Positions 1 to 4,781 of a DNA stretch of 5,101 nt are shown piece after piece. The notes under the pieces are model-generated. The model was not told the DNA's origin and ran no database searches. It saw only the letters and a list, made by a program, of their open reading frames with translations. Within the stretch, counting starts at the first letter, position 1; each line of letters starts with the position of its first letter. The DNA lies in the IMG/VR virus record IMGVR_UViG_2609459833_000010, positions 1 to 5,101 of that record; one strand, 5' to 3'. The translations under genes were made by a program, and so were the position numbers. Source of the DNA: a virus (taxonomy: Duplodnaviria; Heunggongvirae; Uroviricota; Caudoviricetes).

Positions 1-276
1 CAGGCTAACTGGCCGAATCTTGCCACGTTCTTCGCTTATCCAACGGACATCCGCAAAGTGATCTATACGACGAATGCCATCGAGTCGCTAAACAGCGTGA
101 TCCGCCATGCGATCAAAAAGCGTAAAGTGTTCCCGACAGACGACTCGGTGAAAAAAGTGGTGTGGCTGGCAATCCAGGCGGCTTCACAGAAATGGACGAT
201 GCCACTGCGGGACTGGCGTATGGCAATGAGCCGCTTTATTATCGAGTTCGGTGACCGCCTGGACGGCCACTTCTGA
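1..276 (+). CDS. IS256-family (Mutator-type) transposase, C-terminal fragment; the 5' end lies upstream of the window
   Basis: Frame 1 is open from base 1 to the stop at 274-276. The translation (QANWPNLATFFAYPTDIRKVIYTTNAIESLNSVIRHAIKKRKVFPTDDSVKK...KWTMPLRDWRMAMSRFIIEFGDRLDGHF) carries the C-terminal motifs typical of IS256-family transposases (YTTNxIESLN, KWTMP, F..RL). Recognised from memory, not searched. Confidence 0.8.
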   Translation, partial: QANWPNLATFFAYPTDIRKVIYTTNAIESLNSVIRHAIKKRKVFPTDDSVKKVVWLAIQAASQKWTMPLRDWRMAMSRFIIEFGDRLDGHF

Positions 277-290
277 GAAAAGGTATTTAC
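1..290 (+). mobile_element. Right-hand end of an IS256-family insertion sequence; the exact terminus is not determined
   Basis: Inferred from the transposase 3' end at 1-276. The terminal inverted repeat could not be located from sequence alone. The element must end within a few tens of bp of the stop and may overlap the 3' end of the convergent gene at 287-523. Confidence 0.45.
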
Positions 291-523
291 ACAGAATCCT
301 GAACAGGCTCTCCCCATTGTTTGTTCTTAAGTTCGATCTCCTCCTGGCAACTTGCACAAGTCCGACAACCCTGAACAGCCAGGCGTCTTCGCTCATCTAT
401 CGGATCGCCACACTCACAACAATGAGTTGCGGATACAGTCTGGTAGTTCAGACGACGCATTTTTATTGCTGTATTGCGCTGTAATTCTTCGATTTCTGAT
501 GCTGAATCAATGATGTCTGCCAT
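287..523 (-). CDS. TraR/DksA-family C4 zinc-finger protein (phage TraR-like, of the lambda Orf73 class)
   Basis: 78-aa ORF with an ATG start. It contains C-x2-C-x17-C-x2-C (CCEC...GDPIDERRRLAVQGCRT...CASC), the zinc-finger signature of TraR/DksA proteins, and its size matches F-plasmid TraR (73 aa). Confidence 0.8.
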   Translation of the reverse strand: MADIIDSASEIEELQRNTAIKMRRLNYQTVSATHCCECGDPIDERRRLAVQGCRTCASCQEEIELKNKQWGEPVQDSV

Positions 524-2724: not shown

Positions 2725-3021
2725 TTATACCTCTGAATCAATATCAACCTGATGGTGAGCAATGGTTTCAACCATGTACCGGATGTGTTCTGCCATGCGC
2801 TCCTGAAACTCAACATCGTCATCAAATGCACGGGTAATGGCTTTTTTGCTGGCCCCGTGGCGTTGCAAATGATCGATGCAGAGTGATTCAAACAGGTGCT
2901 GTGGAAGACCTTTTTCCATGTCGTCTGCCAGTTCTGCCTCTTTCTCTTCACGGGCAATCTGCTGGTAGTGACGCGCCCAGCTCTGAGCCTCAAGACGATC
3001 CTGAATGTAATAAGCGTTCAT
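2725..3021 (-). CDS. gam: Host-nuclease (RecBCD) inhibitor Gam, short form
   Basis: 98-aa ORF ([60 protein letters not shown]...[10 protein letters not shown]) recognised as lambda GamS. An AGGAG Shine-Dalgarno lies 7 nt upstream of the ATG. An in-frame stop at 3076-3078 with no start codon in between rules out the longer lambda-type form here. Confidence 0.94.
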
Positions 3022-3096
3022 GGCTGAACTCCTGAAAATGGCTGTGAAAATATCGCCCGCGAAATGCCAGGCTGATTAGGAAAACAGGAAAGGGGA

Positions 3097-3507
3097 TTAG
3101 TGATTCAGGCCGTTGCCTCGTCCGTCGAGAAAAACTTCCACGAGCAAATCACGGGTATAAGTGCGCTCGATGCCGCGATGCAGATATAGCCGTCCGCGTA
3201 AATTAGCTGATGCTGTCCAGGTACCATCTTTGTGTTTGACCAGCATTCCTGGCATGACCGCACCGCGATTAACGGTCTGCGTTCCGTAATGTTGATGAAC
3301 CATAAAAACTCCTGCCCGTAAGCTGGGCTGCTGAACATATAAAGACTTCTGCGCGTATTCAGGCGGTGGATGGCCGCCGGTTGTCATAACTAAGCCGCCT
3401 CGTTGAAGCGACTGAGGTATGAAATGTTGAGTTAATTTCAGCTGGTCACACCGACGTTCACGCGTCCGCTTCACCCCTCGCACTTCCCGGAGCCTGCTGA
3501 AATTCAA
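3097..3507 (-). CDS. Hypothetical Arg-rich protein or gene remnant; no ATG at the head of the ORF
   Basis: 136-codon open frame, and the plus strand here is closed in all frames. The frame opens right after a stop at 3517-3519 and its first start-like codon is TTG. The first ATG is codon 41, preceded by GAGG about 10 nt upstream, which would give 96 aa. No family recognised. Confidence 0.3.
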   Translation of the reverse strand: MNFSRLREVRGVKRTRERRCDQLKLTQHFIPQSLQRGGLVMTTGGHPPPEYAQKSLYVQQPSLRAGVFMVHQHYGTQTVNRGAVMPGMLVKHKDGTWTASANLRGRLYLHRGIERTYTRDLLVEVFLDGRGNGLNH

Positions 3508-3588
3508 GCTACGGATCTAAGCGGTCATCGCAACGGTGAATCAGGTGGTTGCCGTATCGTTGTGTTGTTGCGATATGATGATAATAGC

Positions 3589-3625
3589 TATTGCTATTGG
3601 TGATATCAATACTTATTGCTATTGG
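3589..3625. repeat. Two perfect copies of a 12-bp direct repeat, TATTGCTATTGG, 25 bp apart in AT-rich intergenic DNA
   Basis: Read directly: 3589-3600 and 3614-3625. Each copy is itself a GCTATT-type tandem, and both lie in the AT-rich spacer between the terminator at 3747-3774 and the ORF at 3097-3507. Confidence 0.5.
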
Positions 3626-3746
3626 CTGATGTGTTTTGATATTAAATGTTTGATAGCAAAAAGAATTAATTTTGTGACTTGCATCGCATAGCGATAACTG
3701 AAGCAGGGGCATGGTGGTTTTTTGAACGGTGTGTGATGAGGGGAGG

Positions 3747-3774
3747 CAAAAGAAAACCCGGCACGACGGCCGGG
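3747..3774 (-). terminator. Intrinsic (rho-independent) terminator downstream of the membrane-protein gene
   Basis: On the minus strand, a GC-rich hairpin CCCGGC-cgtcgt-GCCGGG (3757-3774) is followed by TTTTCTTTTG (3747-3756), starting 9 nt after the TGA stop at 3783-3785. Confidence 0.55.
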
Positions 3775-3782
3775 GAGGGGGG

Positions 3783-4289
3783 TCATTTTAATCTATCAAG
3801 GAGTGACTCTCTTTCCTTCTTCTCTGATTCTCTTCGGTTTAATAACGCTTTAAACTCTTGAAGCTCAACCATTATTTTATGAACGAATACACTGGTATAG
3901 AGAGAAATAAAGAGTAATCCACCTGAAATTTTTAAGACCCTGAAGAGTAGGGCTTGATCATTTGTGCTTGCTATTAACCCCAAGATTACAAACAAAGTTG
4001 AAAATACATAGAAAGCTAATAATAAAACCAATTTCAGTCTCTTGGATTTGACTATTGGCACTAATCGCCTAACCTCACTAGGGGTTAAAGACGAGTGGTC
4101 ATTGGCCTCATTTGCCTTAAAAATGGCTTGTATACAATATGATAATGGCAATTGCATGAGTCCAACCACAGCCCACGGAGCTGTTAGGACAACACCCGGT
4201 GTAATATAGCCCAATGCTGACTTGAACAAAAAGTAACCAGCAACATAGAAGACCAACATACCAATAAGGTGGATGATGTTCGATTTCAT
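3783..4289 (-). CDS. Predicted integral membrane protein (about 4 transmembrane helices, charged C-terminal tail), function unknown
   Basis: 168-aa ORF with an ATG start and a canonical AGGAGG Shine-Dalgarno 5 nt upstream. Hydrophobic stretches sit at about residues 5-22, 30-57, 85-107 and 112-136, followed by a Lys/Glu/Arg-rich tail (LQEFKALLNRRESEKKERESLLDRLK). The gene is AT-rich and starts 21 nt after the upstream gene's stop. Confidence 0.75.
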   Translation of the reverse strand: MKSNIIHLIGMLVFYVAGYFLFKSALGYITPGVVLTAPWAVVGLMQLPLSYCIQAIFKANEANDHSSLTPSEVRRLVPIVKSKRLKLVLLLAFYVFSTLFVILGLIASTNDQALLFRVLKISGGLLFISLYTSVFVHKIMVELQEFKALLNRRESEKKERESLLDRLK

Positions 4290-4310
4290 TATCGCCCTCC
4301 TTTTGGTAGG

Positions 4311-4781
4311 TTATTTTGCAACCAATTCTCCGGCATCAAGTTTTGAGAACAGCCACTTATGCATTTTTAAGAATAAATCATTTTCATCAATAATGCCATT
4401 GTTATGTTCAACGCTAATTTTTCCGGATAATTTTATCTCTTTTCCCGTTATTTCCCCACCGCCTTGAAGTTTGATGCTAATATCATCCTCATCTAGATGT
4501 CGTAGTGAGGTAGCAATACTGTCTATAACAGCTTGACCGCTATCATTTGTTTTTCTGAAGTATGTAATCTCGAGGCTTACTTGTAAATTGGCCTCATCTA
4601 ATGAATCTTTAATGTTTATATCATTTGCCCAGTTATCGCCAAAAAATGCTTTTAGTAGCGCACCTCCTTTCCCTATTGGGCGGTATTTTATTGTCTTCAC
4701 CGAACCATTTGAAAAGGAGGGTGTTTGGTTCTCTGAATTTTTAACTTCTGAAGTAATGGGTAATCTGATCTTACCCAGCAA
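4311..4781 (-). CDS. Hypothetical soluble protein, first gene of the two-gene cassette; 5' end apparently truncated by the IS3 insertion
   Basis: 156-codon frame ending in TAA at 4311-4313. The head of the frame (4766-4781) is IS3 inverted-repeat sequence and the first start-like codon is a TTG inside IS3. The native portion (4765 and below) has no ATG until near the C-terminus, and its only GTG (codon 28) has no Shine-Dalgarno. No family recognised. Confidence 0.55.
   Translation of the reverse strand: MLGKIRLPITSEVKNSENQTPSFSNGSVKTIKYRPIGKGGALLKAFFGDNWANDINIKDSLDEANLQVSLEITYFRKTNDSGQAVIDSIATSLRHLDEDDISIKLQGGGEITGKEIKLSGKISVEHNNGIIDENDLFLKMHKWLFSKLDAGELVAK

What the first reader, a model, noticed from the sequence alone, without database searches (positions are those of the whole stretch)
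3589..3625. Paired 12-bp direct repeats in the AT-rich spacer: possible operator or iteron-like sites
TATTGCTATTGG occurs twice, perfectly, with 25-bp centre-to-centre spacing (about 2.4 helical turns), inside an AT-rich intergenic region between the cassette terminator and the 3097-3507 ORF. Repeats spaced like this are typical binding sites for dimeric regulators or nucleoid proteins. Two copies are far too few for a CRISPR array.
Basis: seen in the sequence. Interest (0 to 1): 0.35.

Follow-up and report, generated by a model that had tools for sequence, protein, structure and literature searches.

The report
Prophage repressor operators at PL
The two 12-base repeats are the conserved halves of two neighbouring binding sites for a lambda-like prophage's CI repressor, placed over the promoter for its early-left genes; this is the ordinary OL/PL switch for an immunity type whose operators I found no description of.

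Summary
TATTGCTATTGG occurs exactly twice (3589-3600 and 3614-3625), 25 bp apart, in DNA of 37% GC.

The window is a lambdoid prophage of the Perceval/LF82 type. Its layout is cI, then a cargo cassette like rexAB, a terminator, an AT-rich spacer, then kil-gam-bet-exo.

Each 12-mer is the right part of a 16-bp dyad site of the form AATAGC-N4-GCTATT. OL1 is 3583-3598 and is a perfect dyad; OL2 is 3608-3623. They overlap the -10 and -35 hexamers of the only sigma-70 promoter found in 3050-3900 (TTGATA-17-TATTAT, minus strand), which reads toward kil.

Close relatives carry three sites of the same type, also 25 bp apart, between cI and cro.

Phages with the same flanks but a different CI helix-turn-helix region have a different ~95-bp block here. 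That block carries AACAAC-N4-GTTGTT sites, which recur in their own cI-cro region. The association held in all 17 records examined.

A matrix trained on Salmonella BTP1 and a Klebsiella phage ranks OL1 and OL2 first in the window. Its six best hits in the 50-kb Perceval genome all fall in OL or OR.

Verdict: these are OL operators over PL, a new member of a well-known kind. Binding and repression are inferred, not measured. Interest is low.

The parts
3589..3600 (+). First copy of the reported 12-mer TATTGCTATTGG. It is the last 10 bases of OL1 plus 2 flanking bases.
   Evidence: Exact match.
3614..3625 (+). Second copy of the reported 12-mer. It is the last 10 bases of OL2 plus 2 flanking bases.
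   Evidence: Exact match. The last base is A in close relatives.
3583..3598 (.). OL1: 16-bp operator AATAGCTATTGCTATT, a perfect 6+4+6 dyad. It fills the promoter spacer and overlaps the -10 hexamer by 4 bp.
   Evidence: Best PWM hit in the window at 21.7 bits. It is the only zero-mismatch match to AATAGC-N4-GCTATT in the window and in the 50-kb Perceval genome.
3608..3623 (.). OL2: 16-bp operator AATACTTATTGCTATT, 25 bp from OL1. It overlaps the -35 hexamer by 2 bp and extends upstream.
   Evidence: Second-best PWM hit at 20.3 bits; the next hit scores 11.9.
3628..3643 (.). Candidate weak OL3, GATGTGTTTTGATATT, 20 bp from OL2.
   Evidence: Only 5.8 bits, but BTP1 and the Klebsiella phage have clear sites at the same 25+20-bp geometry. 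Tentative.
3652..3667 (.). Possible fourth, half-matching site GATAGCAAAAAGAATT at the outer edge of the immunity block.
   Evidence: 8.7 bits. The stretch TTGATAGCAAAAWGAATT is conserved in BTP1 and the Klebsiella phage. Function not established.
3581..3609 (-). PL promoter: -35 TTGATA (3609-3604), 17-nt spacer, -10 TATTAT (3586-3581). Predicted start near 3574, reading toward kil-gam-bet-exo.
   Evidence: The only sigma-70-like site found in 3050-3900, matching 10 of 12. BTP1 and the Klebsiella phage have matching hexamers (TTGATA/TATTGT; TTGCTA/TATTAT) at the same positions relative to OL1 and OL2. In the other immunity type TTGACG aligns with the -35. The start site is inferred.
3575..3668 (.). 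Immunity-specific block, about 95 bp. It is replaced as a unit in phages whose CI has a different helix-turn-helix region, while both flanks stay conserved.
   Evidence: Alignment A1, columns 96-189; T309.Ta3.
3747..3774 (-). Intrinsic terminator ending the cI-cargo (lysogenic) transcription unit, equivalent to lambda tIMM.
   Evidence: CCCGGC-CGTCGT-GCCGGG followed by TTTTCTTTT. Conserved in both immunity types.
3097..3303 (-). kil (FtsZ inhibitor), the first gene downstream of PL, followed by gam, bet and exo.
   Evidence: RefSeq and Perceval annotation; PHROG 294 and NF008465.
3783..4289 (-). 168-aa transmembrane cargo protein, the last gene of the cI operon (the position of rexB in lambda).
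   Evidence: Annotation in relatives. Expressed in the LF82 lysogen at 81 times local background (PMC9928086).

Best explanation
The repeats belong to the left operator (OL) of a lambdoid prophage. Two 16-bp dyad sites, OL1 (3583-3598) and OL2 (3608-3623), are 25 bp apart, with one or two weaker sites further upstream. They overlap the -10 and -35 hexamers of PL, the leftward early promoter that drives kil-gam-bet-exo. In the lysogen, dimers of the prophage CI repressor (an HTH domain like that of the 434 repressor, plus an S24 self-cleavage domain) are proposed to bind OL1 and OL2, probably cooperatively, and keep RNA polymerase off PL. After RecA-stimulated CI self-cleavage, PL fires. Cro, whose sequence changes together with these sites, probably binds them later, as in lambda. 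Shown here: the sequence features, the promoter overlap, the same motif in OR of relatives, and the change of site sequence together with the CI HTH region. Inferred, not shown: binding, cooperativity, repression, the transcription start, and any OL-OR looping.
For: (1) Gene order. Relatives have the order cI, two cargo genes, terminator, this spacer, then kil-gam-bet-exo, all leftward. This is the lambda order cI-rexA-rexB-tIMM-OL/PL. In the LF82 lysogen, Perceval's cI and the TM cargo gene are among the few prophage genes reported well above local background; kil, gam, bet and exo are not on that list.
(2) Promoter. The only sigma-70 match in 3050-3900 is TTGATA-17-TATTAT on the minus strand at 3609-3581. 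Copy 1 lies in its spacer and copy 2 abuts its -35.
(3) Same motif in OR. The cI-cro region of a relative 98.9% identical to the window has TATACGCTTGCGTATT, AACACGTTTTGCTATT and AATACGCATTGCTATT at 25-bp steps. One lies over a PRM-like promoter. Another lies over a PR-like TTGCTT-17-TATTAT, with the same 4-bp overlap of the -10 as at PL.
(4) Specificity. The 8-mer TTGCTATT occurs 6 times in the 50-kb Perceval genome, and 4 of those are in OL or OR. A PWM trained only on BTP1 and Klebsiella-phage sites puts OL1 and OL2 first in the window (21.7 and 20.3 bits; next 11.9). Its six best Perceval hits are all in OL or OR. None of 20000 shuffles of the spacer reached the observed scores.
(5) Co-variation. 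All 10 phage records with the window-type CI N-terminus carry this OL block. All 6 with the other N-terminus, plus E. coli T309.Ta3, carry a different block with AACAAC-N4-GTTGTT sites that recur in their own OR. Meanwhile the flanks, the CI C-terminal domain, cII (97% identical) and, in T309.Ta3, even the cargo cassette stay the same.
(6) Other genera. Salmonella BTP1 and a Klebsiella phage have CI N-termini 74-78% identical to this one. Both have the same dyad type at the same 25+20-bp geometry over their PL, and 25+25 bp in OR.
(7) Dyad symmetry. The outer arms AATA/TATT are almost invariant in both halves of 18 sites: A at position 2 in 36 of 36 halves, T at 3 in 33 of 36, A at 4 in 34 of 36.
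(8) Protein. CI has HTH_3 and Peptidase_S24 domains, and its nearest solved relative is the 434 repressor DNA-binding domain.
Against: There is no binding, footprint, reporter or start-site data for this immunity type, and I found no paper that describes its operators. The window ends inside IS3 before reaching cI, so the cognate repressor and OR are seen only in relatives. The BTP1 and Klebsiella modules are homologous to this one, so the PWM test is not fully independent. Co-variation cannot separate CI from Cro as the binding protein. OL3 is weak in the window (5.8 bits). The PR -35 matches only 3 of 6 and was seen by eye, not by the scan.
Confidence: 0.88

Rival explanations
1. The sites are real regulatory sites, but the direct repeats are the unit recognised, as with the P2 C repressor. 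The repressor would then bind head to tail, and the left 'half-sites' would be incidental.
For: The right half GCTATT has the same orientation in OL1, OL2, OR1 and OR2 and is better conserved than the left half (AATAGC, AATACT, AATACG, AACACG).
Against: The outer AATA and TATT arms are almost invariant on both sides, at a fixed 8-bp separation, in 18 sites. In OL1 of BTP1 and the Klebsiella phage the better half is the left one, and the 12-mer is not conserved. OR3 (TATACG-CTTG-CGTATT) and OL1 are near-perfect dyads. The repressor is a 434-like HTH plus S24 protein, a class that binds dyads as dimers (established knowledge).
Confidence: 0.05
2. The repeats bind some other factor: a nucleoid protein (IHF, Fis, H-NS), the CII-like activator, or a replication initiator (iterons). 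They would then not be CI/Cro operators.
For: The DNA is AT-rich, which H-NS and Fis favour. Lambda CII recognises TTGC direct repeats, and each 12-mer contains TTGC.
Against: The block changes with the CI HTH region and Cro, while host factors and the CII-like protein (97% identical) stay the same. The TTGC spacing is 25 bp, not the TTGC-N6-TTGC of lambda CII sites. Only two strong copies exist, and they lie about 3.5 kb from the replication gene in relatives. In lambda-type phages the iterons lie inside the O gene (established knowledge).
Confidence: 0.04
3. A chance or neutral 25-bp tandem duplication in AT-rich spacer DNA, with no function.
For: There are only two exact copies, and 1.5% of whole-window simulations give some exact 12-mer repeat within 50 nt.
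Against: The same motif occurs at the same spacing in OR. The block is present in 527 of 5426 complete E. coli genomes. The dyad geometry is kept in Salmonella and Klebsiella phages. The block co-varies with the CI N-terminus. PWM scores were never reached by shuffles.
Confidence: 0.02

Closest known systems
Phage lambda OL1-OL2-OL3 / PL, with OR1-3 / PR / PRM
   Same: Same position in the genome, after the cI-rex unit and its terminator and before the early-left genes. Three partly symmetric operators overlap the -10 and -35 of PL. The same operator type occurs three times between cI and cro. Spacing is 20-25 bp (23-24 bp in lambda; my own knowledge). The repressor has an HTH and an S24 self-cleavage domain. 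A PRM-like promoter ends about 8 nt before the cI ATG, which suggests a leaderless cI mRNA as in lambda (inference).
   Different: The operator sequence and length differ: a 16-bp AATAGC-N4-GCTATT here, a 17-bp site in lambda. No N gene or nutL follows PL; kil is the first gene, after a 270-nt leader. The cargo genes are unrelated to rexAB.
Phage 434 repressor and its 14-bp operators (ACAA-N6-TTGT)
   Same: This is the closest solved structure to the CI N-terminal domain (E = 2e-5). The operator has conserved 4-bp outer arms and a variable centre, like AATA-N8-TATT here.
   Different: Only distant sequence similarity, different arm sequence, and 16 rather than 14 bp. Contacts have not been modelled.
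Immunity region of Salmonella phage BTP1 (also ST104, ST160, SE1) and Klebsiella phage ST11-VIM1phi8.2
   Same: The CI N-terminus is 74-78% identical. The same dyad type occurs at the same geometry in OL (25+20 bp) and OR (25+25 bp), and OR2 (AACACGTTTTGCTATT) is identical. These are probably the same or an overlapping immunity specificity.
   Different: Different phage backbones; BTP1 is P22-like and has an N gene after PL. A different cargo sits after cI (BstA in BTP1). Individual sites differ, and the 12-mer direct repeat is absent.

Membership tests
Lambdoid OL/PL operator-promoter region (CI/Cro operators) | Lies between the end of the cI lysogenic transcription unit and the first early-left gene, with a leftward sigma-70 promoter. 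| tested here: met
   Gene order in Perceval, FHI_NMBU_03 and CB6837. Terminator at 3774-3757 and promoter at 3609-3581, both on the minus strand.
Lambdoid OL/PL operator-promoter region (CI/Cro operators) | Two or three partly dyad-symmetric sites of about 14-20 bp, about 20-25 bp apart, overlapping the -10 and -35 hexamers. | tested here: met
   OL1 is a perfect 6+4+6 dyad overlapping the -10. OL2 is 25 bp away and overlaps the -35. OL3 is weak.
Lambdoid OL/PL operator-promoter region (CI/Cro operators) | The same operator consensus is present in OR, between cI and cro. | tested here: met
   Met in relatives 94-100% identical across the OL block: three sites at 25-bp steps, and the six best PWM hits in Perceval all fall in OL or OR. 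This cannot be checked in the window, which ends in IS3 before cI.
Lambdoid OL/PL operator-promoter region (CI/Cro operators) | The operator sequence changes with the repressor's DNA-binding domain (immunity specificity). | tested here: met
   The association held in 10 of 10 and 6 of 6 phage records, plus T309.Ta3, with flanks and the CI C-terminal domain unchanged.
Lambdoid OL/PL operator-promoter region (CI/Cro operators) | CI and Cro physically bind the sites and repress PL; prophage induction relieves the repression. | not testable with these tools
   Needs EMSA or footprinting, reporter fusions, or ChIP.
Iterons of a replication origin | Several (usually at least 3-4) direct repeats of about 17-22 bp, next to an AT-rich unwinding element, within or beside the initiator gene and specific to that initiator. 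| tested here: not met
   Only two strong copies exist. They lie about 3.5 kb from the replication gene in relatives. The block changes with CI and Cro across phages that share the lambda O/P-type replication gene order, though those proteins were not compared. The sites are dyads, not head-to-tail units.
Lambda CII-type activator sites (TTGC-N6-TTGC flanking a -35) | TTGC direct repeats with a 10-bp period across a weak -35, specific to CII. | tested here: not met
   The TTGC motifs are 25 bp apart (sequence). The CII-like protein is 97% identical between phages whose block differs completely.
HK022/HK639 put antiterminator RNA (considered for the leader just downstream of PL) | A two-hairpin RNA of about 70 nt, starting just after the PL start site, with the conserved put sequence. 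| tested here: not met
   No sequence similarity to HK022 putL or to the annotated HK639 putL-like element. No Rfam hit. The predicted fold is only weakly better than shuffles, z = -1.6. This is a sequence-level test only.

The most novel reading that the evidence does not exclude
The bias toward one strongly conserved half (GCTATT, same orientation in OL1, OL2, OR1 and OR2) over degenerate left halves could mean something. This CI family might read asymmetric operators and assemble directional head-to-tail arrays at a fixed 25-bp period, which would be a variation on the lambda cooperativity model. Alternatively, the extra outer sites (3652-3667 in OL; one near the cro ribosome-binding site in OR) could make four-site arrays that loop across the variable cargo slot.
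Probability: 0.07. Interest if true: 0.35.

Novelty: new member of a known kind. Interest (0 to 1): 0.15.

Why it matters
This defines, by sequence analysis, the operator (AATAGC-N4-GCTATT) and the PL, PR and PRM layout of an immunity type. That type's OL block is found in about 10% of complete E. coli genomes, and related versions occur in Salmonella BTP1-like and Klebsiella phages. The result helps predict which prophages are homoimmune and helps design induction reporters. It also marks the boundary of the cargo slot next to cI, which holds BstA in BTP1 and an uncharacterised two-gene cassette here. It does not change how lambdoid switches are understood.

Tried and rejected
- Rfam: no match on either strand at E up to 1, so the region is no known RNA family.
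- CRISPR or a longer array: only two copies exist.
- Coding explanation: the ORFs over the repeats (67 aa at 3509-3712 on the minus strand; 51 aa at 3536-3691 on the plus strand) are unconvincing. The 67-aa ORF has no Pfam hit, and the block is replaced by unrelated sequence in sister phages.
- Iterons, CII sites and nucleoid-protein sites: rejected on spacing, copy number and co-variation.
- put-like antiterminator in the leader: no similarity to HK022 or HK639 put, and only a weak fold signal.
- Literature: searches for published operators of Perceval, BTP1 or the motif strings found nothing relevant.
- PADLOC, Pfam and NCBIfam on the two cargo proteins: no hits.
- A simple 12-mer scan with 3 mismatches on the 9.4-kb relative was not informative by count (16 hits against 10.9 expected). 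The signal appeared only when position and dyad structure were taken into account.

Full report
**1. The observation**

TATTGCTATTGG occurs exactly twice, at 3589-3600 and 3614-3625 on the + strand, 25 bp apart. The nearest other match in the window has two mismatches. The repeat finder shows that the copies belong to a 25-nt tandem unit, 3576-3600 and 3601-3625, 80% identical. GC is 0.37 over 3501-3700, against about 0.5 in the genes to the left. It is the only exact 12-mer repeated within 50 nt in the window. Such a repeat arose in 46 of 3000 Markov simulations of the window and in 49 of 20000 simulations of the spacer.

**2. Context**

The window is a lambdoid prophage.
- On the minus strand lie exo (1257-1937), bet (1934-2719), gam (2725-3021) and kil (3097-3303).
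- Next come the spacer and a terminator hairpin at 3774-3757 followed by a T run.
- Beyond the terminator lie a 168-aa membrane protein gene (3783-4289) and a 341-aa gene cut by IS3 at 4766.
- Intact relatives are phage Perceval of E. coli LF82, strain FHI_NMBU_03 (98.9% identical) and strain CB6837 (identical over 3560-3690). They continue with a CI repressor gene, a divergent cro-like gene, a cII/YdaT-like gene and O/P replication genes.
- CI has HTH_3 and Peptidase_S24 domains.

This is the lambda order cI-rexA-rexB-terminator-OL/PL-early left genes (my own knowledge of lambda). The spacer therefore sits exactly where OL/PL is expected. In the LF82 lysogen, Perceval's cI and the membrane cargo gene are listed at 11 and 81 times local background. 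The kil-gam-bet-exo genes are not listed (PMC9928086).

**3. Promoter**

The only sigma-70-like site in 3050-3900 is on the minus strand: TTGATA (3609-3604), a 17-nt spacer, then TATTAT (3586-3581), matching 10 of 12. Copy 1 of the repeat lies in the promoter spacer. Copy 2 lies immediately upstream of the -35. The predicted start is near 3574 (inference).

**4. The real unit is a 16-bp dyad**

OL1 (3583-3598) reads AATAGC-TATT-GCTATT, with perfect 6-bp arms. OL2 (3608-3623) reads AATACT-TATT-GCTATT. OL1 overlaps the -10 by 4 bp and OL2 overlaps the -35 by 2 bp. A weak third site, GATGTGTTTTGATATT (3628-3643), and a half-matching stretch at 3652-3667 follow.

**5. The same sites occur in OR**

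In FHI_NMBU_03 the 110-bp cI-cro region holds three sites, each 25 bp from the next:
- TATACG-CTTG-CGTATT at L002 8350-8365;
- AACACG-TTTT-GCTATT at 8375-8390;
- AATACG-CATT-GCTATT at 8400-8415.

The first lies over a PRM-like promoter, TTGACC-17-TAAATT on the minus strand at 8374-8346. Its -10 ends 8 nt before the cI ATG, which suggests a leaderless cI mRNA as in lambda (inference). The third overlaps by 4 bp the -10 of a PR-like TTGCTT-17-TATTAT. That promoter was read directly from the sequence; its -35 is too weak for the scan. The second overlaps that -35 by 2 bp. This is the same geometry as OL1 and OL2 at PL.

**6. Specificity**

- TTGCTATT occurs six times on both strands of the 50-kb Perceval genome. 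Four of these are the OL1, OL2, OR1 and OR2 positions.
- AATAGC-N4-GCTATT with up to 2 mismatches gives four hits in Perceval, three of them in OL or OR.
- A symmetric PWM trained only on eleven sites from Salmonella BTP1 and Klebsiella phage ST11-VIM1phi8.2 ranks OL1 (21.7 bits) and OL2 (20.3 bits) first in the window. The next hit scores 11.9 and overlaps them.
- In Perceval the six best hits (14.6-22.1 bits) are all in OL or OR.
- None of 20000 shuffles of the spacer reached the observed first, second or third score.

The training modules are homologous to this one, so this test is supportive rather than independent.

**7. Co-variation, the strongest evidence**

- Sixteen phage records match 3400-3800: ten at 92-96% identity and six at 82-86%.
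- The ten are exactly the records whose CI N-terminus is at least 94.7% identical to the window type (MKKETLADRL...). The six are exactly those with a CI N-terminus 55-57% identical (MKTTLSERLKEARLARG...).
- In the alignment, 3480-3574 and 3669-3780 are conserved in all six sequences aligned. A block at about 3575-3668 is replaced in the second group.
- The replacement block carries TAAAAC-TATA-GTTGTT and AACAAC-AAAA-GTTGTT, 24 bp apart, with TTGACG aligned to the window's -35. The same AACAAC/GTTGTT motif recurs in those phages' own cI-cro region. That block is found in exactly those six records.
- E. coli T309.Ta3 carries the same cargo cassette as the window, and also an IS3, but has the second CI type, the second OR and the second OL block.
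- Between the two types, CI differs only in residues 1-47 and in the linker at about residues 66-81; residues 48-62 are nearly identical and residues 82-230 are identical. Cro is 48% identical and the cII-like protein 97% identical.

The block therefore tracks the HTH region of CI (and Cro). It does not track the flanks, the cargo, cII or the host.

**8. Other genera**

BTP1 is a P22-like Salmonella phage whose CI N-terminus is 77.7% identical to this one. The Klebsiella phage's CI N-terminus is 74% identical. Both have the same dyad type in OR at 25+25 bp. Upstream of their early-left genes they have three sites arranged OL3, 4 nt, OL2, 9 nt, OL1, with the -35 and -10 in the same places. Over 18 sites the outer arms AATA/TATT are almost invariant in both halves, while the 12-mer direct repeat is not conserved. 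This argues for dyad recognition by a dimer. It fits the nearest solved relative, the 434 repressor DNA-binding domain.

**9. Mechanism**

CI dimers are proposed to occupy OL1 and OL2 and block RNA polymerase at PL during lysogeny. SOS-induced self-cleavage then releases PL and turns on kil-gam-bet-exo. Cro probably uses the same sites later. Binding, cooperativity, the start site and any OL-OR looping (the two are about 2.6 kb apart in Perceval) are all inferred.

**10. Rivals**

Direct-repeat recognition, other binding proteins (nucleoid proteins, CII, a replication initiator) and a neutral duplication were each considered. All are disfavoured by the symmetry, spacing, copy number and co-variation data above.

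**11. Novelty**

I found no paper describing operators for Perceval, BTP1 or these motif strings in the library searched. The OL block occurs in 527 of 5426 complete E. coli genomes, usually once per genome. The matching CI N-terminus plus OR occurs in 719 genomes. This is an ordinary lambdoid switch element of a common but apparently uncharacterised immunity specificity: a new member of a known kind, of low interest.

Noticed in passing
window 3783-4765 (minus strand); L002 5973-7523: The slot between cI and the terminator, where lambda has rexAB, holds a low-GC (36-40%) pair: a 341-aa protein and a 168-aa membrane protein. Neither has a Pfam, NCBIfam or PADLOC match; their PHROGs are of unknown function. 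The membrane protein is strongly expressed in the LF82 lysogen. Sister phages carry other cassettes in this slot: 357+125 aa, a 126-aa lipoprotein, BstA in BTP1, and a ParA-like protein in the Klebsiella phage. This pair is a candidate uncharacterised exclusion or defence system.
   Followed up: partly
window 4766 onward; L011 9080: IS3 interrupts the 341-aa cargo gene in the window. It also interrupts the same gene in E. coli T309.Ta3, 156 bp away and in the same orientation, in a prophage of the other immunity type. These are two independent insertions in one gene, which could hint that the gene is costly to its host.
   Followed up: partly
window 3304-3574 (minus strand): No N-like antiterminator gene is annotated in Perceval. 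PL is followed by a leader of about 270 nt before kil. The part of it that was aligned (window 3480-3574) is conserved across both immunity types and has two predicted hairpins near the 5' end (z = -1.6). It shows no similarity to HK022 putL or the HK639 putL-like RNA, and has no Rfam hit. Its role is unknown.
   Followed up: partly
window 3097-3507 (minus strand): The kil annotation is inconsistent. Perceval lists 139 aa and the ORF finder gives 136 aa from a TTG start. RefSeq gives 68 aa from the ATG at 3303, which has an AGGAG 5 nt upstream. The Kil profiles match only the C-terminal 68-77 residues.
   Followed up: yes
window 3669-3756: About 90 bp between the immunity block and the terminator is conserved in both immunity types and contains the palindrome ATCGCATAGCGAT (3684-3696). 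No function has been assigned.
   Followed up: no
window 1-310: The 3' end of a transposase ORF lies at 58-276; I think it is IS256/mutator-like, but that was not tested. Homology to related prophages starts at 311, near the TraR/DksA gene. The int-xis end of the prophage therefore seems to have been replaced or separated by an insertion sequence.
   Followed up: partly
L002 7646-8338; L003 6382-7071: cI is a mosaic. Residues 82-230 are identical between the two immunity types, residues 48-62 are nearly identical, and only the HTH region (residues 1-47) and part of the linker differ. This implies recombination inside cI, which creates new immunity specificities together with matching OL, OR and cro.
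   Followed up: yes
L008 35765-35780 (Perceval); L002 about 8429-8444: A fourth operator-like site, AATACCAATAGGAATT (16 bits), lies downstream of the PR -10 near the cro ribosome-binding site, 29 bp from OR1.
   Followed up: no
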